A stretch of DNA of 64,000 nt from Eledone cirrhosa (lineage: Eukaryota), in NCBI GenBank assembly GCA_964016885.1, contig OZ024743.1, forward strand, positions 223,014,001-223,078,000, in the 5' to 3' direction. The notes beneath the pieces were generated by a model. That model worked only from the letters and a program-made list of their open reading frames with translations, had not been told where the DNA came from and did no database searches. Position 1 is the first letter of the stretch. Every line of letters begins with the position of its first letter. The translations under genes and the position numbers were made by a program. Of this stretch, positions 1-62,802 are shown piece by piece.

Positions 1-163
1 CTCCTTTACTATAGGAACTTGTGCCATATGTATTAGCGCCTGTACCCCAATAGCCAGTGCTGGAATCAGTGGTGCTTCCATAGTTACTGTACATCCCTTC
101 ATATTGACCTGTGGTCGAGGTGGTAGTGTTGTTTCCAGAATAGCTATCAGAATAACCTGACTG
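1..163 (-). CDS. RAVER1/2: RAVER-like exon, truncated by window edge ((Q)SGYSDSYSGNN...YGTSSYSKG)
   Basis: Pyrimidine tract then AAGCAG tandem acceptor; open S/Y/G/T-rich frame to position 1. Confidence 0.8.
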
Positions 164-12100: not shown

Positions 12101-15100
12101 ATGAACTAGGGATAAGAGATATTATGAATGAAAACAATAGAAATAGCCCATGCAGAAGTGGAAATACAAAATGCACAGAGTACTATGTATATATACAAGT
12201 ACCGAATGCAGGAAATAGAAATCATGCTAAGGAATAAACATGAAAAATCTGTTAAACTTTTGATAGTGAATAGAATATTAGGCTTTTTAGATCTTTATTC
12301 TGATATATGCATGTAGTATGTGCACTTATGTGTGTATGCACACACACACACACACACATACATACATACACATATATAATATATATCATATATCATATAT
12401 ATATATATCGACACAGTATGGCCAAATGGTTAAGAAGTTCACTTTGCAATCATAAGATCCCAAGCTCAATCCCCCTGTGTGACAACTTTAATAACTTTAC
12501 TACCATAGCCTTGGGTTCACCAAATCATGCGAATAAAATAAGTTAGACAGAAAGTCCTTCGAAGCCTGTTGGATAGACTGCTAGCAATTCAAAGGGCCAG
12601 CCATGTTACACATTGTGTAATGCAAAATCTCTGATAATTACATTAATGCTACATGTGACTGTTGAAGGCTTCCATGCTAATTTCTTAAGTAGTCTCTTCT
12701 ATTGATTGAATACATGGAACATGCAGTGTTGACACCAACAAGGGTATATGTCTCTGTATATTACTATCATTATAACATCCATTTTCCCCATACTGCCACA
12801 TGTTGCTCATAGCCACTTATGATCCTTTGACTTCTTGATAGAGGCCTAGATGTTTTTTAAATCTAAATTTAACCAGTTTGCTATCAATCAAGCTAAAACC
12901 ACCCTGCATTTCATGATACAAAACTGCTAATTTTAAAGTGTTTATATATTTAAACCAAAATCTTCCAACATAATTTTATCTAAAAAATGTTTGTTCCATA
13001 ATAATGTTAGTTATTTTGCAAAAGTTTTCCAAATAGTAGGTGGTGTCTTTCACTACAAATATGTTAATGAAATGAGTTAACATTTCTTCCCTAAACTTTA
13101 TCTTAAAGTGTATATTTGTCTAAAAACTTTCCAACATAATAATTATTTCTACTTTAGGCACAAGGCCAGCAATTTTTTGGGAAGGGAAATCGATTAAATC
13201 GACCCCAGTGCATTACCTCTGCTTTACTTATTGACCCCCATAAGGATAAAAGACAAAACTAACATCGGCAAGATTTGAACTCAGAACACAAAGGACCGTA
13301 ACTCTATGCTGTGAAGCATGTTGTCCGACACTCTATTGATACTGCCAATCCACTGTCCTACCTTCGAACTTAGTAATGAGAAAGTTAGTTATATGACTAA
13401 ATCCATCCAAATTCTCGAATATTTTCAAAATCACCTGAAAACCATGGGCAGTGTTTTTCATTAGAAAGCATTAATGATTTAGCTATTATAACACATCACA
13501 TGATAGTCATCATCACCATAAAGTAAACCATCAAATCCACAGACTTACAAGTTAATCACTACTTCCACCAACTACTGAACTTACATATATTGAAATATTG
13601 AAAAGATAAAACTTCGAGGAAAGTGATGAAGAAAGAAAGGAAAAAAAAGATGGTAAAGTTATAATAGACAAAGCAAATGTTTCTCATTTGAGCAAAGAGG
13701 ATAGAGGAAAGGAAAATAAAAGTTACATCCGAAGGCATTTGACCAGTGACTTAATATATTGTCCAGTTTGAACTGCGGCAATTTAGCAATTTACCTGTTC
13801 TCCAACTGAAGTGAGCAGATTGAGTTGGTTGGCCAGTGGTCCAGTGAACTAAGAGGAAGACAGAAAGATAAAACTACTTTAAGAAATAAACAATATCTAT
13901 ACACTATACACCCCTTTTTTGTAACCACATCAACCAGAACCAACATTATATTCACCCAGTTTCAGCATCTTTCTTGGGTGTTGTTTATGTGTTAACACTT
14001 CGGATACCAAACCACCTGACCTCGCTCCTGGTTCTACAATACTAGGCTGTTTGTTTCAACGTGACACCCTTTTTTTGTAACCGCATCAACCAGAACCAAC
14101 ATTATATTCAGCCAGTTTCAGCATGTTTCTTGGGTGTTGTTTATGTGTTAACACTTCGGATACCAATCCACCTGACCTCGCTTCTTGTTCTACAATACTA
14201 GGCTGTTTGTTTCAACGTGTTTATCATCATCATCATTATCATTATTGTTTAACGACCATTTTCCATGTTAGCATGGGTTAGACGAGTTGTCTTGTGCGAT
14301 AAAGTCAGTGACCATATCTTGCTCATACAGAATTGTTTATATTTATCTAACTGAACTGTTATATTTATCTAAAAAGCCTCCATCATAATTTTGTGTAAGA
14401 ACTTTTTGTTAAGTTATCATTGAAACACCTGCTTAATAACAAGAACGTTTCTTTACAAAATCGGCCCAACTTCTTGATTATTTTCAAAATTATTTCAAAA
14501 TCATAGATAGAATCTTCCATTAGAAATCTGGTATCAAAACTTTTATAATATAACACGGATAGCATAATGTTGTTAATGTGTTAATATAACACACAACCAG
14601 CAGTGTATTACTTATGTACAAACACAAGACATATAGAACAAGGTGTTCTTTATATATCAACATAACACATATAGTATAAGGGTGTTGTTTATGTGTTATA
14701 TAATAGCACATAGAACATAGCATGTTATTAATGTGTAAATGTGTTACATCTACACAATGACAACATACTAATGTTCTATGTGTTAATATAACACAGAGCA
14801 TAGGTTTGTTAATGTGTTAACACACAACACATATAGAATAAGCTGTTGTTAATGTGTTAATACAACAAACAACAAATAGCCTAAGGTGTTATTGATGAGT
14901 TAAAGTAACACGTAACACATAAAAAGATCGTTGGGAAAAACACCAACTTGTGATAATTCAATTCAATGACAGAGCTAAAAACACGATACATCCACCAGTG
15001 TGTATGTGTATATATATAGAGAGAGTTTGCAGTGCTGAGACTGAGGAGACAACTAATCACAGGAGTACTCAATGCATGGAGATATGCAGAGTGGGTATAG

Positions 15101-20635: not shown

Positions 20636-23600
20636 ATCAATCCCAATACTGGACTGGTACTTTATCGAGCTTGAAAGGATTTAAGGTAAAGTTCACCTCA
20701 GAGTGCAATGAGCTGGAACAAATACCAAGGCACTTTTAATTCATCACCATACAGACTGCCAAACCACTGTCTTTTTTATTTATTCACTTATAAAATGAAA
20801 TCATCATCATCATCATCATCATTTTACATCCGCTTTTCCCTGCTTGCAAATAGCAGTGCACTTTGGCCAACCTATATAACATCAATTTCATTCAGATTTA
20901 TATTATCCAACTGAAGATAATGTCCACACTGTAAATGTGGTTGGTGTTAGGAAGGGCATCCAGCTGTAAAAACCTGCCAAAGACACTTCCGTGCGAGCAA
21001 GACACAGTCTCCCTACCATTCCTGCATCAAATGGAACAAAACCGTCTAGCATGAAAGATGGATGTTAAATGATAATGATGAGAAAGATATAAAATATATA
21101 TTCAAGTAAACCTAGCAAGCAATATTAACTCTTAACATCCTATACCACATGAAACTACATTAGCAAGACATTTTTTAAAAGTATAAAGCAGCACTATAAC
21201 TGCATCATATTAATCATTAAGATATTACTCTAATACTGTTAATTTTCACAACAATCTGTTGATTAGTAAAGATACTATAAACATTTGAATTTGCAAACCT
21301 GTTTTTAGATATTTTCTGCTAAACCATTACAGGATGTTAAGAGATAATTGTTTCTACTTTTTGGCACAAGGCCAGCAATTAGCCAGTACATTACTGTACT
21401 TTATTTTATCGACCCCTTAAGGATGAAAGGCAAAGTTAACCTTGGCAGGATAGATAATATTAGTCCAAGTTCTTCATTTATTTAAAAAAATCAATAAACA
21501 AATTTTGAAGCCAAAAATACCTGGTTTGGCATTCCTCATGATGGTCTGATGTATATAGGTTTTCTGAAGTAGCTGGAGGGCTTGGTGGAATTGCTCGAGT
21601 ACTAAAAGAAAAAGAAAGTCCATTTATATAACTTGCTGAAATATCAAAGAAGAAAAGAATCCAATATCACTTTTCATCCTTTTCCAAATCTGAGAAAATA
21701 TCTCTGGTTTGGACCATAATAATTTACATCAAAGCTGAATCAGCTCTAGTTCTATGAAACAAAACCACCCATTTTAAAGGGTTCTTAGTTAAATTTAAAT
21801 TTTCCAACACACAGACACAATACAATCACAAAGGATTTAACGCTCACTTTGTTACCATATTTCAAGTGATAGGCATTGCCTATATTTTCAAATAACTTTA
21901 AAGATAATCAATAATTTCAAGGCAGTAATATAACTAACTTTCTCATTAGTAATCTAGTGTTTGGAACATAAAAAAGTTCTTACATAAAATTATAATGAAA
22001 AGTTTTTAAATATAAACATTTTAAAACAAACAGTTTTGTATCATAGAATCAGAGACAGTTTCAGGCAGTTTAGTATCAAAAGGGTTCTTTTAAATATTTT
22101 CATTAGTTGGAAAAAAAATATGTTGGTGTAGTGAAACTGGACAGGTCACATGGCAGCTTTATAGATAAAAATAAGCAAATAATCTTGCTAATTAATACAA
22201 CAGTTGTGTTAATAAATTATGTACATAGCCAGAATTGCTTCAATTACTTAATACAGTGCAGGTGATGGACATAGTGGTTAGGGAGTTTGACTTACAATCG
22301 TAAAGCTGTGAGTTCAATTCTCAGCAGCATGTTGTGTCCTTGAGTGAGACACTTTATTCCATACTGTTCCAATCAACTCAGGTGGGAAAAGAAAAAAAAA
22401 TCAGTTGTACTGATAATTCAAAGGGCCAGCCTCGTCTCATTGTGTCATGCTGAATCTCCCTGAGAACTAAGTTAAGGGTATACATATCTGTGGAATGCTC
22501 AGCAACTTCCACATTAATTCCATGAGCAGGCTGTTCCATAGATCAAATAACTGGAACACTCAGAGGTCCAGCATATATACAGATACTTAATACAATCATA
22601 AATTTGCAGGTCTGTTCAAGCCATTAAAATAAAAAAAAAATATTCTCAAGATGGAATAAAGCCACACATGCCAATGAAGGAGCCTCTATACAGTCACTTG
22701 ACCTGCTAAAAGTAGCAACTAAATTTCGCTTGAATCACACCCTATTGTCTTAAACATAAAAACAAAAAAAAAAGCCCTGATATACAAAGTGATGGGCCAT
22801 GGCTGGAATGCCATATATCTTGCTGGATTAGACCCGACATGAAGATAAATGACAACTGAAACCACATCTACTACAGATCATTTAGAGTGCTAAATAATCA
22901 ACTTCCTTAAGTATCAGTGCCTACATAGAAACCACTCTAATTCCAGTTCACTTTGTTCATGATCTCCCATATCTTTCTCTCTCTTCTCAATTCCTCTAAC
23001 ACAACTCACTTCTCGATCTTAAATTATCCTAGCTGACGGCAATGCATACAAATTTCTTTGACACTGCTGTCAAAGGCCAAATCTTCACTATGGTTAACTG
23101 TTGCTGTATCTGTTTAACACTCCTCACCTAGAACAGCAACCACAAGGCATCTCGCCTGATGCTCTAACAATTCTGCCAATCCACTACTCTGGACTGCTAC
23201 TTAATTTTATTGATCCTGCAAAATTGACCTCACTGGGATTTGAACTCAGAGCACAGAGTTGTAAAAAATATTGCAAATCATTTTGTTCTACACTATAATG
23301 ACTCTGCCAAATTGCTGCCTGCAAAAGATATTTACAGTGCTTACGTTTTCTAATCAGTCACCCCCACTAAGTACTAGCTACGCTTAACATTGCATAACTT
23401 CAGTGATCAGACGAGAACTGGTGTTTTCAACTTGATATGACCATAAACAACTGCAGATTTAAGAGACATAATTTTTAGAGCAGGCAAATTAGAAGTGACA
23501 TTTACAACAAATGAACAAAACTGGTAAATCATTTCCATATTCAATAAAACATGAAATGAATAATTAAACATTTCATTACAATATTCCTAATGAAAGACAC

Positions 23601-31400: not shown

Positions 31401-34400
31401 ACAACAAAAACATCCAAGAATATAAAAGTTTATATATCAAAATGGCATAGAACGACATCCCACATACATTTAGAGTGAGACAAAGCCACATTATATCACA
31501 AGACAAATAGTTTATATTTCGTAAGAATTACACCCCAGCCACAAACATATTGATTTTTTACAACAATTTACACTTTTTGGTAATAACATCTGTACTACAG
31601 TGTGTGTGTGTGTGGGGGGGGGGTCAAAGTAGACACGCCATATCCCTGCATGTTGTAAGAGACGAGAAAAAGTTGGGTGCTAAAAAGGGCATCAAGCTGT
31701 AAAAAATTGCCTCAAATTGAACCGAATTATCAGTATGAAGTCTGACAGGGGCTTGCAAGGCAAACCACTCGTTTAGCAGGGAAAACAGCCACAAAATGCT
31801 TGCTAGTTGGTGTTGGTAAAATTTTTGAAACTAAATTATTTCTACTATAGGCACAAAGCAACCAATTTTAGGGGAGAGGAAAGTTGATTAAATTGACTCC
31901 AGTGCATTACTGGTGCTTTATTTTATCAACCCCGTAAGGATGAAAGGCAAAGTTAACCTCCGCGGGATTTGAACTCAGAATGTGAAGATCAAATGTCAAG
32001 GTGTATATGTCAGTTATATGTGAATGAGTAGTGTGATAAGAAAGGCAGCCAGTCGACAACACTAATTACACACATCACCATACATTTGTAATGACTGACA
32101 ATTGCAGTTAACCAGATCTGTTTAGCAAAAGGAAATAAAAAAGGATGGGTGGGGTCGGGGGTGAACGTATTGGTTTTTAGAGCAGCAGTTCCAGTCTAAC
32201 TGTCAGACTTTCATCTCATCTCAAATATGTACTGAGGACAATAAATGTTTTGGTTATAAGAACTATACTACATGTATGTATATGTGGTGAGTATATAACA
32301 CGAGAGAGGTGGGAGGGGGCAAAACAATATAATTTGTTGATACAACTAACTGCATGTTATTGTGGTATTATAGAGTAAACTTAACAAGATGAAGATTTTA
32401 TATATATATAGTGAGAGAGAAGGAAAGAGAGAGGTGGAGAGAGAAAGAGAGTGATAAAGACATAAGTAGAGAGGTGGCAGTCAGAAGAAGCAATCACTGA
32501 AATCTTGAAGTCATTGCCACTTTTTTCTTCAGAAAATATATATTATACGCTGTTCATATGCACATTCAGTTAATCTTTGAATGTTTTATGTATCCAAAAC
32601 AGCCATTTCAGTAGAGAAAGAGAAAGATAGGAATAAAAACTGGAATATAGTAATATAAATTTTGAAATACATTATAGAAAGTTGGAGACCATAAAATCTA
32701 TTTAAACATTAACTAGCAATTGGAAAACTAACATCTGCTCCACTGGGTATAGAATACACAGACCAATGACAATGACACAGAGTTGTCCAGAGGTTACAAC
32801 TTGGCTATCAAAGCTCTTAAGTAAGTTTTCACTTTATATCTTCATTTCACTTTTCCCATGACCCTCCAGGGACATAGAAGCACTGTTTATGCAGTGTATC
32901 TTGGGGGGAATACAGCCCTGTGATACCCATTACTCTCCAGGTTTTACTTTATATAAGAATTTCTTTTTCTTTTTTATATATATAATAATAAAAAATCTGA
33001 TTGAAATGGGATGAAATGTTCATTTGGAATGGAGCAGAACAGTTATAATTGAGAGAGAGAGAGAGAGAGAGGAATAGAGAACAATTACAGATAAATTGAA
33101 AGAGGGAGAGAAGAGAGAGAGAGGAGAGAAAGAGGGAAAAATAGAAAGTAAGAGAGAGAGAGAGACCAAAAGTCACGACAGGATGAGCATCAAAATGTAT
33201 GAGAAATATAAATAAGACAAGGGCTACACACAAATACAGAGTTACAAGAAACAAATACAGAGAGTTTCAATAGACAGAAACATGAGAACTAAGAGACAGA
33301 AAGGAGAGTTACAATAGACAGAGAAAGGAGAGATACAATAGACACAGAAAGGAGAGATGACAGAGACTTGAGAACTAAGAGAGACAGAAATGAGAGCTAC
33401 AAGAGACAGAAATGAGAGCTGACAGAGACAGAGACTTCAGAACTAAACGAGACAGAAAGGAGAGCTACAAGAGACAGAAATGAGAGCTGACAGAGACAGA
33501 GACTTCAGAACTAAACGAGACAGAAAGGAGAGATACAATAGACACAGAAATGAGAGCTACAATAGACACAGAAATGAGAGCTACAATAGACACAGAAATG
33601 AGAGCTACAATAGACACAGAAATGAGAGCTACAAGAGACACAGAAATGAGAACTACAATAGACAGAAACATGAGAGCTACAATAGACAGAAACATGAGAG
33701 CTACAATAGACAGAAACATAAGAGCTACAATAGACAGAAATGAAAGTTACAATATATGCAGAAACGAGAGCTACAAGAGAGACAGATAGATATGAGTTAC
33801 AATAAATACAGAGATGGAAGTTACGAGAGAGAAAGAGAGAGAAGAGCCACAAAGATGAGAGTTACAAGAGACAGGGATATTATGAGTGTGAGAGTGATAA
33901 GAGTTATAAGTGTATGCAAGAGAGAGAAAGTGAAGTATTGTATATGAAAAAGAGTTACGAATGAGAGTGAAGAGTTGTGTTGAAGACAGGATTGAGAGAG
34001 ATGAGTTATACGAAAGAAAAAAGGTAGATAGAGAGAGAAAATAACAGAAATATTGTTTAGTCTGACAATCCATGTTTTATTCTTTCTTTGACAATATATA
34101 GAATAAGATTTGTGGTAAGAGCTGAGTGGGAACTACACACTTTTGATATCCTTTCCCCTGAGGAGGTTACTAACAATGTTTGTGATATGATACTGACTAG
34201 GAATTGGAACTAGGTCATGAGTTCAATTCCCAGGAGCTCTTTTACTGTTAGACAACACAGTGGTGGTGGTGGTTCTTCTTATGATATGTAGCATAAGATT
34301 TGTGGCTGGGGGAAACCATACAGTTGTCATGATGTCTTTCCTGAGGAGGCTGCTATCAATACATGAGAAATGACACTGACTCGGAACTGTAACCTGGCAA

Positions 34401-37400: not shown

Positions 37401-40400
37401 CTGGGATTCATTCTCTTTCATAACAATCTGGAAAAAGATATTTTATGGTATAAATTTGAATTCATGACATGGAACAGTGAAATACAGACAGTAATTAATA
37501 AAAACTGACAGAAGTTGAAGACAAAAAAAAGTCTAATTACAATGTTAAGTATATTGGTTGATCAACAAACACATAACAACTAGGTTCTGTTCTGATAACA
37601 TGGTCATAAAATCCTCATCACCATTTAACATCCACTTTCCCTGCTAGTAAGGGTTGGACCTGTTGTTGCAGACCAAGTCAATATTTAATTGGAGCTACTG
37701 ATCTCCCAGATGGGTCAGTGGTCTGCTTTTAGATTATATGTTCCAACACTCTACAGTGCCCAAGGGTACATTTTATCATGGTACTGGCAATATTGGGGAT
37801 GTCATGTTTTTGACACAGCTGAAAAGTCTTTTCAACCTATTGGCAAACTTTTTATGGCTGGATACCCTTCTTCTCATCAACTTCTTATGGAAACACTAAC
37901 TTAGTAACTCTAAGTTTGTTTTATTTGCCAAACTCTGACATATGTATGGTGAAATGTGTGTTTCCATTAAATGAAACAGTACTTCAGTCAGGAGTGGCTG
38001 TATTCAAGATACACTGCATGTCTCTGTGTGTCACTGGAGGCATCTAAAAGGGTTGGCAGCATTAGAAAGGGCATCTGGCTATAAAACATTATTGCAAATG
38101 ATCCCCTCCAAACTCAATTCAGCATGGAAAAGTTGATTTAAAAATGATGATGATAATGATTCTAATTCTAGATGACCTATATAATGGATATCATCTAACA
38201 TTAGGAAATCAACAGAGTAGAAAAGATATGGGAAAAACCAGCTATACATCAGAAGAATTTATTGAGGCATGGATGAGAGATTGATGGCCTGGATAAGTGA
38301 CATAGAAACGAGAGTAAAAGACATGGAGTGAAATAGATCTGATACAAAATAAAGACAGAGATGGCGGGAGAACATGAGAAAGCTCTCACGCTGATAAACT
38401 GAAGAAATCATACAAGTAATTCATGAGTAATTTGATGTAAACAGAACAAAAATGTGACAGACAATTAAAAAAAATATTTAACTCTTAACTCTGCCACCTT
38501 TCAATATAGTAGTACTTAGATAAAGTCCGTGTTGAGCTTAAAAACCCATCATGCCCCAGAGCTTATCCTGGTTACACTACCGTTAAGCGACTGAAAGTAC
38601 AAGATTTAGGTGGCAGACTTAATCTGTTGCCCAGTTTAACACAACCTAGCCCTGTTGAAAACGTTTGGAACAGCTCTCCAATTCAAGGAGAGCATCCTCC
38701 TTCTCGCCAGCCCTAAAAATGTTGTGGGCACTGCCCTTACTTCCTTAACCCATTAGCATTTAAGCCAGCCACACTTGGTCACATTTCTCTTACTTCTTCC
38801 TGTTCAAACCGGCCACTCATACTAATGTTAAGGTATTGTTCTCAAAATAAATAATATGAAAATCTCATAAATTTGATATTATGTGAAGTAAAACCTTTAC
38901 CATGAAAATACAATAGTATATATAGAATAGAGTAATGTAAATGCTAAATGGTTAAATAAACAATAATCCGCGCTAAACTGTGACCAAGAAGATTTCTAAA
39001 GCCCACAAACACACACAACTATTTCAACATTAATGTGTGTATACATTTTAGTCTTACTTGGCAATATATAGGGGCTTCATTTGTAGAAAACATATCCTTT
39101 AAATTAGCTGTATCCTTGAAGGTTTTTGGTAAGCCATCAATAAGAAGACATTTTGAATTCAACTTGTCATAAGAAGCAACCAAATTCTCCTCAATGAAAT
39201 CACATGCCAGAAGATTATCCTTGTATTTCTGACAATTCAAACCCTCTTTAATACAGGTAGATTTTTCCTTGTTGTGGCAATATTCAAATATAGCATAATT
39301 CTTGCTTTCACCTGAAATTAGAAAAACATCACAAAATGAAAAGTTTATCTTCATATGATTTTATGTCCCAAATTCCAGCTTACTAACAACAATGATAGTT
39401 ATTTTACTAAATACATCCTAATTTTTAATTATTTTCAAAATTAATTAGAAAATACAGGCATTATTATATTTCAAAAGAAATATAGTAACGAAAGCATTAA
39501 AGATAAGAATCCTATTGAATACCATATTAAATTATCAACTAATTACATTAGAATAGACCTACATGCAATCTATATATAGGGACTACTTTCTATACTTTCT
39601 AAGAAACCCAGTTTGTGTAACTTTTTATGAAATTTATCTGGAAACCCTGGTAATAATTATATAAACAGTAGTAACTACTAATAAAACATACTAGCAACAA
39701 TAAAAATTAATCCAATGTCCTGTACCACATAAAATCACTTTAGCAAGATATTCTTTAAAGATTAAAGTTTAATATTGCAAATTTTCATAATTTACCTACC
39801 AGTAGGGATAAAATAAACATTTGAATTAACAAGCATGCTTTTAGATATTTTCTGTTAAATCATTACAGGATATTAAAAAGTTAATTAACAAATGTTTATA
39901 TGCAACACATTAAAAATTAATATCTTTAACTCTATTATTGCAAATTTTAACAAGGATCTGTCCACTAGTAAAGACACTATAAACATTGAATTAACAAACC
40001 CATATATTTGTTGCTAAATCCTTACAGGATGTTAAGAGATAAAATATGAAAAGCAGTTTAAACTCAAAATAAGAATATTGAAGCTATACACACCAGTATC
40101 TTCACAACGCATCAGAAAGAATTTCTCCATTGGTCCATATGTTAGCAGTAATTTATGAACTTCCATTTCCAAACAGTCTTCAGGAAGGTTTGTAAGACAC
40201 AGCATCTTATCACTGGGGTGTAAGCTAACAGTAACATCAGTCTCAAGTAGCTGTTTACCAGTAAGCTGTTCGACAATTTCTTCAGCATCTTCACCATTCA
40301 TTAGAGTTACTATTGCTGTAGAAAGACATAAATTAAGAGGCTGAACATTTTAAAGGTTTACACACAAATAGTGGGTGAACAAATCGAGACAATATAGAGT

Positions 40401-43700: not shown

Positions 43701-45012
43701 AGCCGAATCAATAGCTGAGCTAGAGAAGAAATTCCAAACATGGAAGCGTGGCCTAGAATCAAAAGGCCTTAAAGTTAACTTGTCTAAGACTAAAGTCCTA
43801 ATATCTAGGAAAGAGAATAGGGCACTGGTCCCATCTGGGAATTGGCCATGCTCAGTGTGTAGGAAAGGAGTAGGCAGAAACTCCATTTTATGTCCCAAAT
43901 GCAAAGTATGGGTGCATAAAACATGTAGTGGGATCACAGGTAAGCTAACTAAGAATATAGATTTTATATGTGGCCGGTGCTCTGGTGCAATTAGTAGCAG
44001 CAAATACCCACAGAATACTAGCTTATTACATTGCCCAGATGGTTCTATAGAAATAGTGGACACCTTCCGTTACCTGGTTGTCAAAATCAGCAGTGGTGGA
44101 GGGTGCTCTGAAAGTACAGTAGCTAGAGTCAGAACAGAATGGAAAAAGTTCAGAGAGCTTATACCACTATTGGCCGCTAAAGGTTTCTCTCTAAAAATGA
44201 AAGGCAGGCTGTATGATGCCTGCATACGAACAGCGATGTTACATGACAGTGAGACATGGGCCTTGTGTGCAGAGGATCGACGCAGACTGGAGAAGAACGA
44301 AGCTTGCATGCTCCGTTGGATGTGTAATAGTAATATACGCGAACGGCAAAGCATAAATGAACTAAGTGAGAAATTAGGAATAAGAGGGATCAGATGCTGT
44401 TTACTCGAGAGAAGACTATGTTGGTATGGTCACGTGATGCGCATGAAAGATGACAGCTGTATAAAAAAGTGCAGGGCAATCAAAATAGAAGGTAGCCACA
44501 GAGTAGGCAGACCCAGAAAAACCTGGGACGACTTGATAAAATCCGACCTTACACACTTACACCTCTCCAAGACAATGTCACTGGAACAAGATCTTTGGCG
44601 CTACGTAGTAATACAGAAGACCTGCCTTGCCTAAGTACAAAGCGAAACCACAGTCAGTAGGCACCTCTTAACCAAAATAAACCCCCGTCTCACTCACCCT
44701 ACCCCCACGCATCTACACCACCCCTTTCCATGTAAAGCTATGTTGGTACCACAGCATCCAGTCCTAAATAAATGAGGTCGTGTAGGTGTCACGACAAAAA
44801 AAAACACACAGTCCATGCTGTAATGTGGCCGTGTAGGTAACACGGTAAAAACCTCCCAGTCCACACTGTAAACGTGGTTGGTGTTAGGAAGGGCATCCAG
44901 CCGTAGAAAACCCGCCAGACAGTCCTGGGCAAGACAACAAATCTTGCCTCAAATGGGACAATTCCCGTCCAGACCCATGCTATCGTTAAACGATGATGAT
45001 GATGATGATGAT
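43701..45012 (+). mobile_element. RTE LINE copy A: 5'-truncated, RT C-terminus + PHD + 3'UTR + (GAT)n tail
   Basis: ORF 43780..44634 (KTKV, WYGHVMR, GRPRKTW); tail gatgatgat. Confidence 0.93.
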
Positions 45013-52464: not shown

Positions 52465-54386
52465 AACCAAATAACCGACAGTGACTACATAATTATTGCA
52501 GGCGACCTAAATGGTCACGTTGGACAACATTGTGATGGCTATGACGGAATCCATGGAGGCTATGGGTTTGGTACTAGAAATGAGGAAGGCTCCAGAATCC
52601 TGGAATTCTGTGATGCAAATAACACTAACTTCAAAAAACGAGACAATCACTTGATCACCTATAGATCAGGGGAACACGCCAGTCAGATAGATTATATCCT
52701 TACCAGAAGACGTGATAGAGTGTCTGTTGTAAACACTAAATCCCTCCCCCATGAAGAATGCACCTCCCAACATAGACTCATAGTTAGCGACCTCATAGTC
52801 AGGACAAAACGTACTCGACAACAGAAGAGGACTATTCTCAGGAGAAAAATATGGAAGCTAAAGGACTCCACAGCCAGTAATACATTTAAAAGCATATTAC
52901 TTGATGCTTTTGAAAGTAAGGAAGAGCAATTAGAGTCATACAATATAGAGGAACAGTGGGAATTCCTGAAAGCTAACCTGCTGAAGGCAACAGATGAAGT
53001 CTGTGGCTGGAGCAGACCTATAGGCAGGAGGAGAGTAACGTAGTGGTGGAACAGTAAGGTGGAGGAGTTAATCAAGGCCAAAAAGCAGGCTTGGAAAGTA
53101 TGGCGGGATGGGGGAAGTAGAGAAGACTATCAAGTGGCCAGGAGGGAAGCTAGGAGACAAGTGTACTTCGCAAGAAGGGAAGCAGAGGAAAGAAAGTTCA
53201 AGCATGTTCTACAACGCGAGGACCAAAAACATGAGGTGTTCAGGATTGCTAGGCAATGTGTCAAGGAAAACCGTGATATTGTCGGGGAGAAGTGTGTCCT
53301 TAATGATGATGGTGTACTTGCCATCACTGACGCTGATAAGAAGGTAGCTTGGAAGTGTCACTACGAAAGGCTACTAAATGAGGAGAATAAATGGGAGAAA
53401 GACAGTCTCCCCCACATCGATCCAATAGAGGGACCAGCAGTGCAAGTTGAAGGTAGTATAAGTAAGGCAATCAAAGATATGAAGACGGGCAAGGCGGCTG
53501 GGCCTTCGGAAATAGTTGCTGAAATGCTGAAAGCATCTGGAACGGTGGGACACACTATGGTCACCCGGATAGTAAACCAAGTCATACAGAATGGGGTCGT
53601 ACCGAAGGACTGGCGTAGCATCATCATCATTAACTGCTACAAGGGTAAAAGAGATGCCCTAGATAGGGGAAACTATAGAGGCATTAAATTAATTGACCAG
53701 GTCATGAAGGTCACAGAAAAAGTAATAGCGCAACTAATCAGAGAGCGAATTGATCTGGATGAAACGCAGTTCGGGTTTGTGTCAGGTAAAAGTACCACAG
53801 ACGCTCTTTTCATTGTACGACAACTACAGGAGAAGTACCTAGCTAAAAGTAAACCCCTATACTTAGCTTTTGTTAACTTGGAGACAGCCTTTGACAGAGT
53901 CTCACGCCCCATTATCAGGTGGGCTCTCAGAAAACTAGGTGTTGATGAATGGCTTGTGAGAGCTATACAAGCCATGTATAAAGAAACAGTCAGGTTAGAA
54001 TTAACAACGAATATAGTGAAGAGTTTAGCGTAAAAGTTGGTGTTCATCAGGGCTCCGTCCTCAGCCCCCTCCTATTTATTATTGCCCTTCAGGCTATAAC
54101 AGAGGAGTTCAAGAACGGCTGCCCATGGGAACTCCTATACGCTGATGATCTAACGCTTATAGCTGAATCAATGGCTGAACTAGAGAAGAAATTCCAAACA
54201 TGGAAGCATGGCCTAGAATCAAAAGGCCTTAAAATTAACCTGTCTAAGACTAAAGTTCTAGTATGTAGGAAGGAAAATAGGGCACTGGTCCCATCTGGGA
54301 AATGGCCATGCTCAGTGTGTAGGAAAGGAGTAGGCAGAAACTCCATTTTATGTCTCAAATGCAAAGTATGGGTGCATAAAAGATGT
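52465..54386 (+). mobile_element. RTE LINE copy B: partial endonuclease + RT, truncated at both ends, with stops and frameshifts
   Basis: ORFs 52651..53043, 53059..54033 and 54171..54413; GDLNGHVG, QIDYIL, NYRGIKL, QFGF, YADD. Confidence 0.93.
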
Positions 54387-54941
54387 ATTATTATGTATTA
54401 TTACAATATATAGAAACAAACTCGGACCCTAATTAATTCCTCTAAGTTCATAATTCATTTAACCTTATCTTCATTCACCTTATATTCTTAATATATTTTA
54501 ATAAATTCCTTTTCGCACATCTTATTAAACCCTTCAATATATAAACCTTAAATAAATAGTATTCTTAATTCCTTTTTCTTTAATCATAAGCATCACCATT
54601 CATAAACCTCATTAACTTTTAATTTCTTAAAATTATGTATTATCTTACAACGGTTTTTTTAAATTTTTCTCTGAGACAGTGTTTCTCAGTATTAAAGGTT
54701 ATCTCTTTCTCTCACTCATTTTCTCCTCGTCTCTCATCCTTCCTTCTTATACTCCTCCTCCGTCATCCTTTCCTTATTATTATTTTTTTTTTCCTTCTAT
54801 CTATATTTTTTCTTCCTCACCTTTTCTTTCCCCCTTCCTTTCCTTTTTTCCAATCTCATATATCCCTCTAATTTTATTTTTCATGTTGATTTGACACTTC
54901 ACTGCTCGCAAGTGTTTTTTAAGCTTCATATCATGTCTCCC

Positions 54942-55009
54942 TATTTTATCTGATGAGAACGCAAATATCATCCCATGATATTTGTTTTTGAAATGTGCAT
55001 AATAAAATA
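54942..55009 (+). ncRNA. Type I hammerhead ribozyme motif
   Basis: Stem I tattttat/ataaaata (8 bp); CTGATGA; stem II of 14 positions with 1 mismatch and 2 G-U, loop tccca; GAAA; stem III ATG-tg-CAT; NUH triplet AUA. Confidence 0.8.
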
Positions 55010-55389
55010 CATGGAACTCTTTTAACCATCTTTTGATTTTATATTATATATATAATGTAGGTATATATGTGTGAGTCCATGCCTGTGTTTATGTTTTTAT
55101 GTATATATAGGAAGGGCTCCCCACTGCAGAAACCATACCAAAAGCATCGAGGGGACTTTTTAGGTCTATCAAGGGTATGTTCTCTCTAGTGTTGGTGATT
55201 TACATGATAAACACATCCAGTATACTCTGTAAAGCAGTTGGTGATAGGAAGGGCATCCAGCCATAGAAAACTTGCCAAATAAAGGATCGGTAGGACTCTT
55301 CAGCTGTGCCATAGACATGGCAACCTCTCTAGTGTTGATGCCACAGTAAATGTATTAGGTAAAGCAAGACGGCATTATATACATATATA

Positions 55390-55690
55390 TCATCATCACC
55401 GTTTTACGTCGATTCTTCCATGCTAGCATGGGCTAAACGGGTTGTACTGTTGTGGGCATGTGGGCAATGCTGACCTTGTCTTGCTCATATGGAAACTGAT
55501 TTTGGCTTGATTTCTACAGCTGGATGCCCTTCCTAACACCGACCTCATTTACAGTGAGTGCTGGGTGCTTTTCTCTGTGGCGCCTACACGTCCACTTTAC
55601 AGTGTGGTCTGGGTGCTTTTTTGTCGTGACACCTCCACGACTACTTTGCAGTGGGAGGGGATGGGGGCATATTGCCTATAATCTTCGGCT
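55390..55690 (-). mobile_element. 3' end fragment of the RTE or of an RTE-tailed SINE
   Basis: Reverse complement of the LINE 3'UTR (ggtgttaggaagggcatccag...cccatgctagcatgg...gatgatga). Confidence 0.75.
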
Positions 55691-55794
55691 TCGAAGTATA
55701 TATATATAATAAAAAATTGAACAGGGACAGAACAGAGAGGCAGTACGACAAATGTTTATTAGATTCACGCTCAGGAGAGTGGGGGGTAGGTGGA

Positions 55795-55832
55795 GGACGA
55801 CGTTTCGGGCATAAGCCCTTCTTCAGGTAAGA
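55795..55832 (-). ncRNA. Minimal type I hammerhead-like motif (weak stem I)
   Basis: ac-CTGAAGA-a-GGGC ttat GCCC-GAAA-CG-TC-gt. Confidence 0.6.
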
Positions 55833-55986
55833 GTTCAAAAGGTATGTAGGGGAGTGGTGGAGAGACATATAGCGAAAGGAAACGGTGCGAATATATATAT
55901 ATATATAAAGTAAACAGAGGTAACAAAGCAAATGACACAGTACAATGAAGAAATAGATTAATTTAACGTTTGAAATAATAGGAAAA

Positions 55987-56025
55987 GTCTTTATGTTTCA
56001 GACACTCGTCTTTCATCAGGAGATA
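55987..56025 (-). ncRNA. Minimal type I hammerhead-like motif (degenerate)
   Basis: tctc-CTGATGA-a-AGAC gagt GTCT-GAAA-CA-TA-aaga. Confidence 0.55.
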
Positions 56026-56687
56026 GAATGAGAAATAAAATATGAAATAGAGTGAAAAGAGGAAGGAATGGAAAAAAAAAATAAAACCTACCATCATCAA
56101 CACCATACACAGTTTTACAAATGTTACAAGCTAATTATGTCATACAACTATCTGCTGTATACACTAAAGATATACATTCACAATGCTTTATAGCTACTTT
56201 CATTGCTAAATGTTAAATGTATTCATTGACATTATCATTCCACCTGAAATTATTCTCAAGGTTTTTTATTTAATCTCCATTAAGCTATAGTTGTAGAACA
56301 ACTTTCCACTGGCAAAGTTGGAAATAATACAGAATCGAGATGTGTTAAGAATTACTTGTGTGGTCTATTTTGTTTCTGCCAAGAACAAATCAGTTTTAAT
56401 ACCATATAACTAGTTAGCAGTCATTATTGTCAGACATCATGCTTTGCAGCATAGAGTTATGGCCTTTACGTTCTGAGTTCAAATCCCACCGAGGTTAACC
56501 TTGCCTTTCATCCTTTCGGGGTCGATAAAATAAAGTACCAGTAATACACTGGAATAATTGCTGGCCTTGTGCCAAAAAGTAGAAACAATTATTGGTAAAT
56601 AGCTCATCTTATTTTTAACCCTTTAGCATTTACATTACTCTATATTTACTATTGTATTTTCAGAGTAAAGGCATTATCTCGCATAAT

Positions 56688-59600
56688 GGTCGATGTTTGT
56701 TGTATTCAAGAGACCAGGTGGAGGGGTGGGTCTGCTAGGTTCATTGAGGGTAAAAAACGATGTTATAAGCTTTTCTGGGTGGGAAACGACGATGGGCTGG
56801 GTGGAGTAGGAATCATGGTAGCAGAAAAGTGGGCAGATAAGATAATAGACGTAAATAGAGTGAACGACAGAATAATTAAAATACGACTTGTCCTCAATAG
56901 AACTACGGTGACAGTAATATCTGCATACGCACCCCAATCCGGACTGCCCGGCACTATAAAAGACAGATTCTATGAGACACTGATGCTAACTACCTCCCAA
57001 ATATCCGACAGTGACTATATAATTATCGCAGGCGACCTAAATGGTCACGTTGGACAACATTGTGACGGCTACGACGAAATCCATGGAGGCTATGGGTTTG
57101 GTACTAGAAATGAGGAAGGCTCCAGAATCCTGGAATTCTGTGATGCAAATAACCTAACTATCTGTAACACTAACTTCACCTGATCACCTATAGATCCGGG
57201 GAACACACAAGCCAGGTAGATTATATCCTTACCAGAAGACGTGACAGAGTGTCTGTTGTAAACACTAAATCCCTCCCCCATGAAGAATGCACCTCCCAAC
57301 ATAGACTGATAATTAGCGACCTCATAGTCAGGACGAGACGTACTCGACAGCAGAAGAGGACTATCCTCAGGAGAAAAATATGGAAGCTAAAGGACCCCAC
57401 AGCCAGGAATAAATTTCAAAGCATATTACTTGATGCTTTCGACAGTAAGGAAGAACATTTAGAGTCGGACAATATAGAGGGACAGTGGGAATTTCTGAAA
57501 GCAAACCTGCTGTTGGCGACAGACGAAGTCTGTGGCTGGAGCAGGCCTGTAGGCAGGAGGAGAGTAACATGGTGGTGGAACAGTAAGGTGGAGGGGTCAA
57601 TTAAGGCCAAAAAGCAGGCTTGGAAAGTATGGCGGGATGGGGGAAGTAGAGAAGACTATCAAGTGGCCAGGAGGGAAGCTAGGAGACAAGTGTACTTAGC
57701 AAGAAGGGAAGCTGAGGAAAGAAAGTTCAAGCATGTTCTACAACGCGATGACCAAAAACGTGAGGTGTTCAGGATTGCTAGGCAATGCGTCAAGGAAAAC
57801 CGTGATATTGTCGGGGAGAAGTGTGTACTAAACGACGATGGCACACTTGCCATCACCGACGCTGATAAGAAGGTAGCTTGGAAGTGTCACTATGAAAGGC
57901 TACTAAATGAGGAGAATAAATGGGAGAAAGACAGTCTCCCCCATATCGACCCAATAGAGGGACCAGCAGTGTTAGTCGAGGGGAGTATAATAAGTGAGGC
58001 AATCAAGGATATGAAGACGGGTAAGGCGGCTGGGCCTTCGGAAATAGTTGCTGAGATGCTGAAGGCATCTGGCACGGTGGGACACACCATGGTCACCCGC
58101 ATAGTTAACCAAGTCATACAGAATGGGGTTGTTCCGAAGGACTGGCATAGCAGCATCATCGTTAACTGTTATAAGGGTAAAGGAGACGCCCTAGATAGGA
58201 GTAACTATAGAGGCATTAAATTAATCGACCAGGTCATGAAGGTCACGGAAAAAGTAATAGCGCAACTAATCAGAGAGAGAATTGACCTAGATGAAATGCA
58301 GTTCGGGTTTGTGTCAGGCAAAAGTACCACAGACGCTCTTTTCATAGTACGACAACTACAGGAGAAGTACCTAGCTAAAGGTAAACCCCTCTACTTAGCT
58401 TTTGTCGACTTGGAGAAAGCCTTCGACAGAGTCCCCCGCTCCATTATTTGGTGGGCTCTTAGAAAACCAGGCGTTGACGAATGGCTTGTGAGGGCTATAC
58501 AAGCCATGTATAAAGAAACAGTCAGCAAGGTTAGAATTAACAACGAATATAGTGAAGAGTTTAGCATAAAAGTTGGCGTCCATCAGGGCTCTGTTCTCAG
58601 CCCACTACTATTTATTATTGCCCTTCAGGCTATAACAGAGGAGTTCAAGACAGGCTGCCCATGGGAACTCCTATACGCAGACGACCTGACACTCATAGCG
58701 GAATCAATGGCAGCACGGCCTAGAGTCAAAAGGACTTAAAATTAACCTGGCTAAGACCAAAGTACTAGTTTGTAGGAAAGAAAACAAGGCGGCGGTCCCT
58801 TCTGGGAAATGGTCGTGCTCGGTGTGTAGGAAAGGCGTAGGTAGAAACTCCATTTTATGTCCTAAATGCAAAGTATGGGTGCATAAAAGATGTAGTGGGA
58901 TCACAGGTAAGCTAACTAAGAACATAGATTTTACATGTGGCCGGTGCTCTGGTGCAATAAGTAGCAGCAAGTGCCCACAAAATACTAGCTCTTTCAATTG
59001 CGCAGAGGGTTCTATAGAAATAGTGGACAGCTTCCGTTACCTGGGCGATAAAATCAGCAGTGGGGGAGGGTGCTCTGAAAGTACTGTAGCTAGAGTCAGA
59101 ACTGGTTGGAAAAAGTTCAGAGAGCTTATACCACTATTAGCTGCTAAAGGGTTCTCCCTAAAAATGAAAGGCAGGTTGTACGATGCCTGCATACGAACAG
59201 CAATGCTGCATGGCAGTGAGACCTGGGCATTGTGTGCAGAGGATATACGCAGACTAGAGAGGAACGAAGCTTGCATGCTCCGCTGGATGTGTAACAGTAA
59301 TATACGTGAACGGCAAAGCATAAACGAACTAAGGAAAAAATTAGAGATAAGAGGGATCAGATGTTGTTTACTCGAGAGAAGGCTACGTTGGTATGGACAC
59401 GTGATGCGCATGAAAGTCGATAGCTGTATAACAAAGTGCAGGGCAATAAAGATAGACGGTAGTCACGGAATAGGCAGACCTAGAAAAACCTGGGACGAGC
59501 TGATAAACTCCGACATCACACACTTACACCTCTCCAAGACTGTCACTGGACCGAGACCTTTGGCGGTACTCAGTAATAGAGAAGACCCGCCTTACCTAAA

Positions 59601-59977
59601 TATATAGTAAAACCTACTCCAGCCAGTTGGCATCTCTAACAAAATACACCCCGTCCCACCCCCACCCCCCCCGTTCTATGTAAAGTTATGTTGGTGCCGC
59701 GCCATCGAGGCCGAAACAAATGAGATCGCGTAGGTGTCACGACAAAAAAACACACAGTCCACGCTGTAATGTGGCCGTGTAGGCAACACGGTAAAAACCT
59801 CCCAGACCCACACTGTAAATGTGGTTGGTGTTAGGAAGGGCATCCAACTGTAGAAAACCTGCCAGACAGTCCTATGCGAGCAAGACAATCACTCTTGCCT
59901 CAAGTGGGACTACCCCCGTCCAAACCCATGCAAGCGTGGAACACGGACGTTAAACGTTGATGATGATGATGATGATG
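56688..59977 (+). mobile_element. RTE LINE copy C: nearly full length (APE endonuclease, RT, PHD, 3'UTR, (GAT)n), frameshifted
   Basis: CIQETRW, SAYAPQ, GDLNGHVG, QGSVLSP, YADD, FRYLG, WYGHV. Frame-breaking deletions near 57180, 58712 and 59540 relative to copies A and B. Confidence 0.95.
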
Positions 59978-61204: not shown

Positions 61205-62802
61205 TGTATCAGGTGCAACGGACGACGCAACAGCTATGGTCGGCCAACATAAGGGTTTCTATCTGTATTTGCTGTTCATTGTGTCATTCATCAACAACAC
61301 TTGGCTGCGAAGAAACTCAGCGAGCCACTGAGCAAGTCCTTGCAGGTGGCCATTGAAGTCATCAATTTTATCAAACGCCATTCCCTCAATGAACGAATTT
61401 TCCGGCAACTGTGCAAAGATAATAACAAAGAATTCGTCAAGTTGCTCCTTCATACTCAAGTGAGGTGGCTTTCAATGGGCAAGTGCCTTACTCACTTCTT
61501 TGAACTGTTCGACTATCATTGATTTTCTTCGAGGACGCAACAGAGAACTGTACAAGAAAACCCTCGATGTGAGGCAAAACTGCGCCTACCTTGCCAACAT
61601 CTTCGACAAATGCAATAGTGTCATTATGGCTTTGCAGGGGAAGAAGATCACTTTGCTTAAAGCAAGGAATGCTGAGAAAACATTTCTGGCCAAACTGAAT
61701 GTAATCAAAAGGAATCTTTGATGACGGGAATTCTATAATTTTCCTAGTGTCGTCAATGTTCAAAACATTGTAAGCAATGACCAACTCCAAATTTATACCG
61801 TTTACCTCCATGCGCTACAAGACAACATGAGAGAACGGTTTGTCGATCTTTTGCCGATGGGCATCCCAATGTGGATAGCAGATCCCTTCATAGCTAATGT
61901 CGATGATTTGGACGTTAAATATCAGGAAGAATTCATTGAACTTCAAGCAGATGACATGATCAAAATTAGATTTCCCAAAATAGGTGAACTTCTTTTTTGG
62001 ATGCAAGAGGAAATTCAGTGTCGATTTCCACTCCTACATGCAAAGGCTAAGAGATTTTCTCTGCCTTTTCCAAGCTCATACTTAGTAGAGAGGTTTGGTG
62101 CTGTTTCCAGACTGCACAGTAAGACTCACAACCGCTACAATGTAATTACACGAGGAGATCTCTGGCTACATCTTATGAAAATTCAGTCTCACGTCAAAGA
62201 GTTAGCTAGACTCCATGAAGCCCAAGGGTCCCATTGAAATGAGGTCAAAGTTAAAACTTGGATATGCTATTGTTACAAAGCAAACTAACAATTTTTTTAT
62301 TTGTAGTTGCAGTCCATGGTCTCTAAGATCACAAAGCGGAGGGGGCATCAAGTTAGATATCAACATTTATTCTGTCCGTTTCATTAAAGGGAAAATTGGA
62401 AAGCTTTGAAATAATATAATTGCCACTTTCTTCCAGATAAGAGCACTCTTTGGATAGATAGAGTTACTCTTGTATAAATGTTCAAAATAGCTGGTATCGA
62501 CTGGTGGGAATATAACAAATTCAACTGGTCCTTATTCATAAAAAAGAACATTTATGTTCCTTTTTTTGAAATTCATATATTTCCTTTCAAGGAATGTATT
62601 TATACTCTCAGCTGCCTGCAATGGTATCTTTGGAATATTGTTAATCAATTTTTTAGTAATATACTGATATCAAAATCAATAGTATATTGAAAAATGGAAA
62701 AATAGGAGGGGGGGGGTTATGATTTCGAGGAATAGGAGGGGGGGGGGTTATGATTTCGAGGAACAAAAGGGGCATTTGGCCTAAATGGGTTGAGAACCTG
62801 TG
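61205..62802 (+). mobile_element. Fossil hAT (Buster/Charlie, ZBED8/SCAND3-like) transposon, 3' half
   Basis: Frameshifted peptides VHCVIHQQHLAAK, LLLHTQVRWLS, LPFPSSYLVE, EAQGSH*. Right TIR-like ggttgagaacctgtg at 62788-62802 is followed by attTAgag, matching the nnnTAnnn Buster-type target. Confidence 0.88.
62701..62761. repeat. 2 x 30-bp G-run tandem repeat, subterminal in the hAT
   Basis: aataggaggggggggggttatgatttcgagg occurs twice. Confidence 0.85.

What the first reader, a model, noticed from the sequence alone, without database searches (positions are those of the whole stretch)
54942..55009. Almost fully paired hammerhead ribozyme at the end of an unclassified (TA)n-bounded element
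Seen: all core elements are in type I order. There is an 8-bp stem I, CUGAUGA, a long stem II, GAAA, a near-palindromic short stem III (AUGUGCAU, one transition from AUGCGCAU) and an AUA triplet, giving predicted cleavage after 55001. The G-U pair at the base of stem II and the change in stem III look like CpG decay. Known: type I hammerheads with short palindromic helix III occur in Penelope-like element repeats and animal retrozymes, and often work as dimers. Inference: 54390-55030 is a non-autonomous Penelope-like/retrozyme-type element that may have truncated RTE copy B. The motif is antisense to the host gene.
Basis: partly seen in the sequence, partly recalled or inferred. Interest (0 to 1): 0.8.

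Follow-up and report, generated by a model that had tools for sequence, protein, structure and literature searches.

The report
Hammerhead of a Hydra-clade Penelope retrotransposon
The motif is a hammerhead-ribozyme sequence near the end of a broken-off piece of a very abundant jumping gene (a Hydra-clade Penelope-like retrotransposon); such ribozymes are already known from this group, and this copy, lying backwards in an intron, is likely inactive.

Summary
The motif is as described and beyond chance (0 of 300 shuffles). The 'non-autonomous/retrozyme' reading is wrong. 54399-~55050 is the 5'-truncated 3' end (3' UTR/pseudo-LTR) of an autonomous Penelope-like element. Other copies continue upstream into a ~800-aa RT + GIY-YIG ORF with Hydra-clade marks: DKT, CxCX5C linker, no CCHH, CxxC..E..N..CxH, (TA)n targets. 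Its lineage has about 19,700 exact-core motifs in this genome (controls 0), and related families covary in stems I and II. The stem III change is CpG decay in this copy. The G.U at the base of stem II is fixed in the subfamily, one step of a likely G-C > G.U > A-U series. Stem III forms only as a dimer (monomer P = 0.001). No copy begins at the cut site (0 of 29), so inserted copies come from uncut or re-ligated RNA. The copy is antisense in an intron of a Raver-like gene and is likely inert. Cleavage is untested. Verdict: new family of a known kind.

The parts
54942..54949 (+). Hammerhead stem I, 5' arm
   Evidence: pairs 8 of 8 with 55002-55009
54950..54956 (+). Catalytic core CUGAUGA
54957..54989 (+). 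Stem II: G10.1.U11.1 closing pair (fixed in the subfamily), two A-U pairs, C x U mismatch at position 4 (54960/54986, shared across families), 11-bp upper helix; lacks a 3-nt ATG of the loop that most copies have
54990..54993 (+). Core GAAA
54993..55000 (+). Stem III octamer AUGUGCAU; family form is the palindrome AUGCGCAU, this copy has C>T at 54996 (CpG decay)
55001..55001 (+). Predicted cleavage nucleotide (AUA triplet, cut 3' of 55001)
   Evidence: sequence plus hammerhead consensus; cleavage not tested
55002..55009 (+). Stem I, 3' arm
54399..55047 (+). 5'-truncated 3' end (3' UTR / pseudo-LTR) of a Hydra-clade Penelope-like element; starts about 430 nt downstream of the ORF stop codon; 3' end ambiguous to 55052 by microhomology with (TA)n
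55048..55055 (.). Short (TA)n target remnant at the 3' end
   Evidence: loose (TA)n ends at 55054 in DNA contigs of one sample
54388..54398 (.). 11-nt TA-rich filler at the 5' junction
52467..54387 (+). RTE-type LINE copy B, broken at the junction; its 3' part is absent from the window
40098..40310 (-). Part of an RRM exon of the Raver-like host gene; a likely first exon lies about 6 kb beyond the window end, so the element is intronic and antisense

Best explanation
The motif is the type I hammerhead sequence in the 3' pseudo-LTR of a 5'-truncated copy of an autonomous, high-copy Hydra-clade Penelope-like retrotransposon; in source elements it likely cuts the element's RNA only as a dimer or with protein help, and this antisense intronic copy is likely inert. 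Shown: family copies have the layout pLTR(hammerhead) - ~90-nt tail - 5' UTR - ORF (RT, CxCX5C linker, GIY-YIG) - ~1-kb 3' UTR/pLTR(hammerhead) - (TA)n, with 5' truncations and head-to-head inverted arms. 3' ends fall at +46 to +51 or about +133 nt past the predicted cut. Inferred: a tandem source copy is transcribed; the endonuclease nicks (TA)n; RT starts at either of two internal sites downstream of the hammerhead, which gives the tail/no-tail ends, as shown in vitro for a Poseidon element (PMC11167929); early stopping left this 650-nt piece. Because RT starts downstream of the cut, the template must be uncut (or cut and re-ligated) RNA. The ribozyme most likely trims or releases tandem and read-through transcripts (the cut is 211 nt before the AUG) and is kept by selection in source elements rather than needed for each insertion. 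Two hammerheads pair through the 8-nt palindrome to make the stem III that a monomer cannot form.
For: Family: 1,142 first-look candidates, 40 scored, 96-99% identity. ORF upstream in copies; pLTR-ORF-pLTR copies such as L086, L090, L093. Hydra marks in natural ORF pieces match the clade description (PMC8557442 section 11); by eye the protein follows Hydra-1_Obim motif by motif. Exact-core counts for the ATGCGCAT lineage: G/C 755, G/U 2,934, A/U 15,991, A/C 40, reversed-pattern controls all 0. A wider pattern gives 12,612 vs 26. Across 10 sequence clusters with 2 or more copies, stem I pairs 98% in own arms vs 68% with arms swapped; stem II pair 3 holds in 9 of 10 vs 41% swapped. RT tree: G-C subfamily branches first, G.U and A-U subfamilies group at 92/96. 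Monomer stem III P = 0.001; octamer self-duplex -10.5 kcal/mol (family), -6.0 (window), -3.2 (another abundant family). 42 of 56 head-to-head pairs counted have one tailed and one untailed end (overlapping loci count some twice). 0 of 29 ORF-start copies begin within 10 nt of the cut, 17 run through it (1 of 30 loci gave no alignment). Host gene on the minus strand: Raver-1 match E = 1.2e-11, likely first exon at ~70.2-70.6 kb; no CUGANGA on the antisense strand here.
Against: No cleavage was measured. In a 252-nt context stem I has only P = 0.01 (0.5-0.75 in the isolated motif), so folding is easily diverted. Rfam hammerhead models miss it. Pfam finds neither RT nor GIY-YIG in three ORF pieces, so the domain call rests on motifs and homologs. 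No copy of this subfamily with one unbroken ORF was seen among those fetched. The copy counts reflect amplification of a few source elements, so the 10.1/11.1 series is about two events; another abundant family has A.C at that pair, which shows the position is tolerant. The endonuclease-region tree left the subfamily order open. The families share ancestry, so the swap test overstates independence. RWK is RWI in this family, and the 2.8-4.4-kb unit is longer than the '<3 kb' given for Hydra.
Confidence: 0.86

Rival explanations
1. Cut-and-ligate model: the two hammerheads of a tandem transcript cut out one unit, which circularises; RT starts about 50 nt past the junction and runs more than once round the circle, making the 5' pLTR.
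For: All 3' ends lie downstream of the cut, 5' pLTRs join the ORF seamlessly through the cut site, and no copy starts at the cut, as a circle predicts. Proposed in PMC4209133 (parts 1-2 read).
Against: Uncut linear RNA predicts the same pattern. For a Poseidon element, hammerhead mutants inserted normally in vitro and no RNA-seq reads ended at the cut (PMC11167929). 5' and 3' pLTRs of one insertion are 89-98% alike (6 cases), which does not separate the models.
Confidence: 0.2
2. Non-autonomous Penelope derivative or animal retrozyme.
For: This copy has no coding sequence; retrozymes carry type I hammerheads and derive from PLE pLTRs (bioRxiv 10.64898/2026.07.22.740005, parts 1-2 read).
Against: The 5' end is private to this copy and other copies run on into the ORF. 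There is no head-to-tail array of short units here, which that paper uses to define retrozymes.
Confidence: 0.03
3. The motif is a non-catalytic relic kept as a protein-binding or RT-positioning structure.
For: Weak closing pair, A/U-only stem I, poor folding in context, constant ~50-nt spacing to the 3' end in several families, no copy ends at the cut.
Against: CUGANGA, GAAA and the UH triplet are kept across families whose proteins are only about 35-60% identical; the patterns selected for these letters, but controls show the arrangement is far above chance. Related PLE hammerheads cleave weakly or with protein (PMC4209133, PMC11167929).
Confidence: 0.12
4. This particular copy acts on the host Raver-like gene, for example by cutting an antisense RNA.
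For: Core intact; the decayed octamer still self-pairs at -6.0 kcal/mol.
Against: It is antisense to the pre-mRNA, no second hammerhead of the family lies in the window, and it is about 2% from its subfamily with no sign of special conservation.
Confidence: 0.03

Closest known systems
Hydra clade of Penelope-like elements, e.g. Hydra-1_Obim, Penelope-13_HM, Penelope-17_HM (PMC8557442, section 11 and supplementary files S1, S2, S4)
   Same: Single ORF with C-terminal GIY-YIG, DKT, YRDD, CxCX5C linker, no CCHH, CxxC..E..N..CxH, (TA)n targets, sense type I hammerhead near the 3' end. A G.U at the base of stem II also appears in Penelope-13_HM and Penelope-17_HM as listed in file S2.
   Different: A different family: its hammerhead is not in the supplement. 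It has clear pLTRs (Hydra-1_Obim is listed without), RWI for RWK, a ~1-kb 3' UTR and tens of thousands of copies. Its hammerhead has a loopless 8-nt purine-pyrimidine palindrome and a C mismatch at stem II position 4, which I did not see in the Hydra rows of file S2.
PLE hammerheads with small palindromic helix III (PMC4209133)
   Same: Type I, in pLTRs, longer helix II, palindromic helix III, predicted dimer action, mostly solo truncated copies.
   Different: No extra nucleotide after A9; the G10.1-C11.1 pair called highly conserved there is G.U or A-U here; helix I is 8 bp.
Poseidon element PAc of Anolis (PMC11167929)
   Same: Two alternative 3' ends downstream of the hammerhead (tail), AT-rich targets, no sign that cut RNA is the template.
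   Different: Different clade; there the hammerhead overlaps the start codon, here the cut is 211 nt before it and the tail is ~90 nt, not 30-40.
Neptune clade PLEs
   Same: C-terminal GIY-YIG, cysteine linker, microsatellite bias.
   Different: Linker is CxCX5C rather than CX2-5CxxC, and the CCHH motif is absent.
Animal non-LTR retrozymes
   Same: Type I hammerhead with short stem III; PLE-related.
   Different: Retrozymes are non-coding tandem repeats; this family encodes its own RT and endonuclease.

Membership tests
Type I hammerhead ribozyme | CUGANGA, GAAA and NUH in type I order with stems I and II | tested here: met
Type I hammerhead ribozyme | Stem pairing kept by covariation among relatives | tested here: met
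   (stem I 98% own vs 68% swapped, 10 clusters, related families)
Type I hammerhead ribozyme | Stable monomer stem III | tested here: not met
   P = 0.001 in the monomer; 8-bp dimer helix possible, as usual for PLE hammerheads
Type I hammerhead ribozyme | Self-cleavage after the NUH | not testable with these tools
   needs an assay
Rfam hammerhead families | Score at the gathering threshold | tested here: not met
   no hammerhead match even at E <= 10
Penelope-like element (EN+) | Single ORF with RT and C-terminal GIY-YIG in family copies | tested here: met
   motifs in natural ORF pieces; Pfam silent; no unbroken copy of this subfamily seen
Penelope-like element (EN+) | Pseudo-LTRs, partial tandems, inverted 5'-truncated arms, optional tail | tested here: met
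Hydra clade | DKT in place of DKG | tested here: met
   SDKTN
Hydra clade | CxCX5C linker; CCHH absent; CxxC and CxH around the conserved E and N | tested here: met
   CNCPIRTKC; LVYECK..YFGST with one Cys; CNLCLAE..N..CLH
Hydra clade | RWK motif | tested here: inconclusive
   RWI in this family, RWK in a related family of the same genome
Hydra clade | (TA)n insertion and canonical sense hammerhead | tested here: met
Hydra clade | Generally under 3 kb | tested here: inconclusive
   unit 2,799-4,406 nt in 6 copies
Hydra clade | RT phylogeny with reference Hydra proteins; no IFD | not tested
   reference proteins compared by eye only
Neptune clade | CX2-5CxxC linker plus CCHH motif | tested here: not met
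Non-LTR retrozyme | Non-coding head-to-tail units, each with a hammerhead | tested here: not met
Non-autonomous PLE family | Shared 5' end without ORF | tested here: not met

The most novel reading that the evidence does not exclude
This genome holds an unrecognised radiation of Hydra-clade elements (over 30,000 exact-core hammerheads in ten or more clusters, invisible to Rfam here) whose ribozymes form a distinct subtype: a loopless 8-nt palindrome that forces dimers, and an invariant unpaired C at stem II position 4 that would serve as a tertiary or protein contact. In the boldest form, cleavage and re-ligation make the circular RNA from which copies are reverse transcribed, and the subfamily series G-C > G.U > A-U records selection on catalysis.
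Probability: 0.2. Interest if true: 0.6.

Novelty: new member of a known kind. Interest (0 to 1): 0.3.

Why it matters
The copy itself is ordinary transposon debris. The family is useful: what hammerheads do for Penelope-like elements is still open (PMC8557442, PMC11167929), and this genome offers many natural variants of one hammerhead subtype, with dated subfamilies and two mapped 3' ends, for testing dimer cleavage, protein assistance and circular templates. [quoted passage not shown]

Tried and rejected
Rfam at gathering (window) and at E <= 10 (54300-55300): no hammerhead. Core-box count alone: not above chance. Pfam on three PLE ORF pieces and PDB sequence search on one: nothing. Expression: no RNA holder listed, no evidence either way. 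Contigs of one sample laid on 53900-55700 collapsed the repeats and showed no empty allele. Neptune was my first clade guess; rejected. An AAUAAA overlapping the cut and another in the tail were considered as poly(A) signals and dropped: copies end in (TA)n, and the motif is common in AT-rich DNA. Endonuclease-region tree did not resolve subfamily order and one row (L249) was a different family; distances included non-homologous flank and were redone. Within-subfamily divergence does not make the A-U group youngest (6.8% vs 4.5% for G.U, 8.3% for G-C). Lunse et al. 2017 on PLE hammerhead dimers was not held; I saw it only as cited in PMC6765202 passages, and it may already describe the stem II mismatch. 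Earlier-findings look-ups by place, words and sequence returned nothing. Paper searches found no description of this family.

Full report
Observation. Core boxes alone are common (8 in the window, 5.2 expected), but the full descriptor with an 8-bp stem I occurs only here and in 0 of 300 shuffles. Rfam does not detect it.

What it belongs to. A search of the own 3.0-Gb genome with 54880-55060 gave 1,142 first-look candidates; the 40 scored were 96-99% alike over the main match. Copies share a 3' end at 55047-55052 followed by (TA)n, have variable 5' ends, and often carry a head-to-head inverted arm. Of 19 other loci picked with the 5' part of the window copy, 18 align from its first base with family sequence continuing upstream and one starts just inside it. 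[quoted passage not shown] Copies such as L086, L090 and L093 show the layout pLTR with hammerhead, a ~90-nt tail, 5' UTR, ATG 211 nt after the cut, ~800 codons, ~1-kb 3' UTR with a second hammerhead, and (TA)n. All fetched copies of this subfamily have breaks in the ORF. The window copy is therefore the last ~650 nt of an autonomous element, starting about 430 nt after the stop codon.

Clade. The natural ORF pieces have SDKTN, the linker CNCPIRTKC (CxCX5C), one cysteine between the GIY and YIG boxes (no CCHH) and CNLCLAE...N...CLH. These are the features given for the Hydra clade (PMC8557442: passages, section 11, supplement parts 1-2 and search hits seen). By eye the protein follows Hydra-1_Obim motif by motif, but that family's hammerhead differs. 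RWK is RWI here, and the unit is 2.8-4.4 kb. No tree with reference proteins was built. Pfam and PDB gave nothing; 41 unnamed homologs at 26-41% identity were found. The organism was not identified; a cephalopod is my guess from recalled genome traits, not from a call.

Is the hammerhead under constraint? Exact patterns for the ATGCGCAT lineage, split by positions 10.1 and 11.1, give G/C 755, G/U 2,934, A/U 15,991 and A/C 40, each with 0 control matches. Of the 100 listed G/C sites, 99 are a sister subfamily; of the 100 listed G/U sites, 2 are that sister type. An RT tree rooted on other families puts the G-C subfamily first and groups the G.U and A-U subfamilies at 92/96 (19 rows kept, rows covering under 100 residues dropped). 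The endonuclease-region tree left this open. So the G.U is a fixed subfamily state that likely arose by C>T at a CpG in a source element and was later followed by G>A. This is about two events, not thousands. A wider pattern (C11.1, purine-pyrimidine octamer) gives 12,612 sites against 26 controls; with the two U11.1 counts that is over 31,000 exact-core motifs. Among 230 distinct hammerhead contexts in the loci held, 10 clusters had 2 or more copies: stem I paired 98% in own arms vs 68% swapped, stem II pair 3 in 9 of 10 vs 41%, and position 4 of stem II was an unpaired C in 9 of 10. Many of these lie next to Hydra-like ORFs. Against strong constraint at 10.1/11.1: one abundant family has A.C there, and published Hydra rows already include G.U. 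The families are related, so these are not independent trials.

This copy. The family octamer is the palindrome AUGCGCAU (26 of 39 rows in loci picked by likeness to the window, 17 of 21 in loci picked by the 5' part). The window has C>T at 54996 and one copy has the matching G>A, so this is CpG decay. A monomer stem III has P = 0.001. The self-duplex is -10.5 kcal/mol for the family octamer, -6.0 for the window's and -3.2 for AUAUAUAU of another abundant family, so the decay need not block dimers. In a 252-nt context stem I falls to P = 0.01. The copy is 2.3% from its subfamily over the hammerhead region.

Mechanism. 3' ends lie at +46 to +51 or about +133 past the cut; 42 of 56 counted head-to-head pairs have one of each (some pairs counted twice). 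This matches the two internal RT start sites and tail shown for a Poseidon element, whose hammerhead cleaved only with protein and was dispensable for insertion in vitro (PMC11167929, parts 1-2 read). Of 29 copies holding the ORF start, none begins within 10 nt of the cut and 17 run through it. Inserted copies thus come from uncut or re-ligated RNA. I favour a slow, dimer- or protein-dependent ribozyme that trims tandem or read-through transcripts (inferred; PMC4209133 parts 1-2, PMC6765202 passages); a circular template is the main rival.

Context. RTE copy B matches copy C up to 54387, then 11 TA-rich bases precede the element; the RTE 3' part is not elsewhere in the window. No target duplication is visible. 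Contigs of one sample confirmed (TA)n ends at 55054 but no empty allele. A minus-strand exon at ~40.1-40.3 kb matches Raver-1 (E = 1.2e-11) and a likely first exon lies ~6 kb past the window end, so the element is intronic and antisense; the pre-mRNA strand has no core here. No RNA holder was listed, which says nothing about expression.

Verdict. Observation confirmed; interpretation partly right. It is a new family of a known kind, with this copy likely inert. The copy number and the shared stem II mismatch are the points worth a specialist's look. Six paper searches found no description of this family; PMC6962438 passages mention 235 Rfam hammerheads in giant squid. One key paper on PLE hammerhead variants could not be read, and the bioRxiv retrozyme paper's supplements were not seen.

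Noticed in passing
window 55700-55892 (minus strand; core at 55826-55803): 3' end of another very young repeat (96-100% identical copies, 4,172 first-look candidates) with a minimal hammerhead (CUGAAGA, extra A, 4-bp stem II, GAAAC GUC, 2-bp stem I), (TA)n on both sides; other copies continue upstream. It is sense to the host pre-mRNA. No PLE ORF found within 1.5 kb in 19 loci.
   Followed up: partly
window 55906-56090 (minus strand; core at 56019-55996): A second, more decayed minimal-hammerhead-like motif (CUGAUGA, extra A, 4-bp stem II, GAAACAUA) in a TA-bounded piece; 78% match in one other locus.
   Followed up: partly
L183:~4630-4800, L152:~820-990 and about 20 other loci: A related Hydra-type family (RWK, 800-aa open stretch in L182, 2,102 candidates) has no CUGANGA at the usual place, but GAAACGGUCGUA sits ~50 nt before its 3' end with a possible U3-A8 core (UUGAAAA) and a 75-nt stem II upstream. 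Possible variant hammerhead; untested.
   Followed up: partly
L154, L164, L204, L086 and others: In several unrelated-looking families the tail begins with a shared ACTCC box just after the first 3' end, a candidate RT start signal.
   Followed up: no
L179, L200, L205: A separate hammerhead family with a GC-rich 9-bp stem I, short stem II, ATGCGCAT and AUC triplet, not followed by (TA)n; could be a retrozyme or another PLE clade.
   Followed up: no
window 2-421, 5748-6812, 39022-39360, 40035-40349 (minus); G000:C4 ~223,084,200-223,084,600: Likely exons of a Raver-like RRM gene with a long low-complexity C-terminal part; the short second exon was not located.
   Followed up: partly
window 43701-45012, 52467-54387, 56599-59976: Three pieces of one RTE-type LINE family (85-94% alike), all on the plus strand; PLE copies elsewhere also sit inside this family.
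   Followed up: partly
window 23329-23448 (minus): Solitary 5S rRNA-like match (61 bits, several broken pairs), likely a pseudogene or SINE head.
   Followed up: no
window 61253-62237 (plus): Broken ORFs that look like a hAT-type DNA transposase remnant (recalled resemblance; Pfam silent on two pieces).
   Followed up: no
L255-L258 (about 75-104 kb in window coordinates): A long minisatellite-like array just upstream of the host gene's likely first exon.
   Followed up: no
window 33260-33816, 13908-14219: A 24-bp tandem array and a 156-bp tandem duplication.
   Followed up: no
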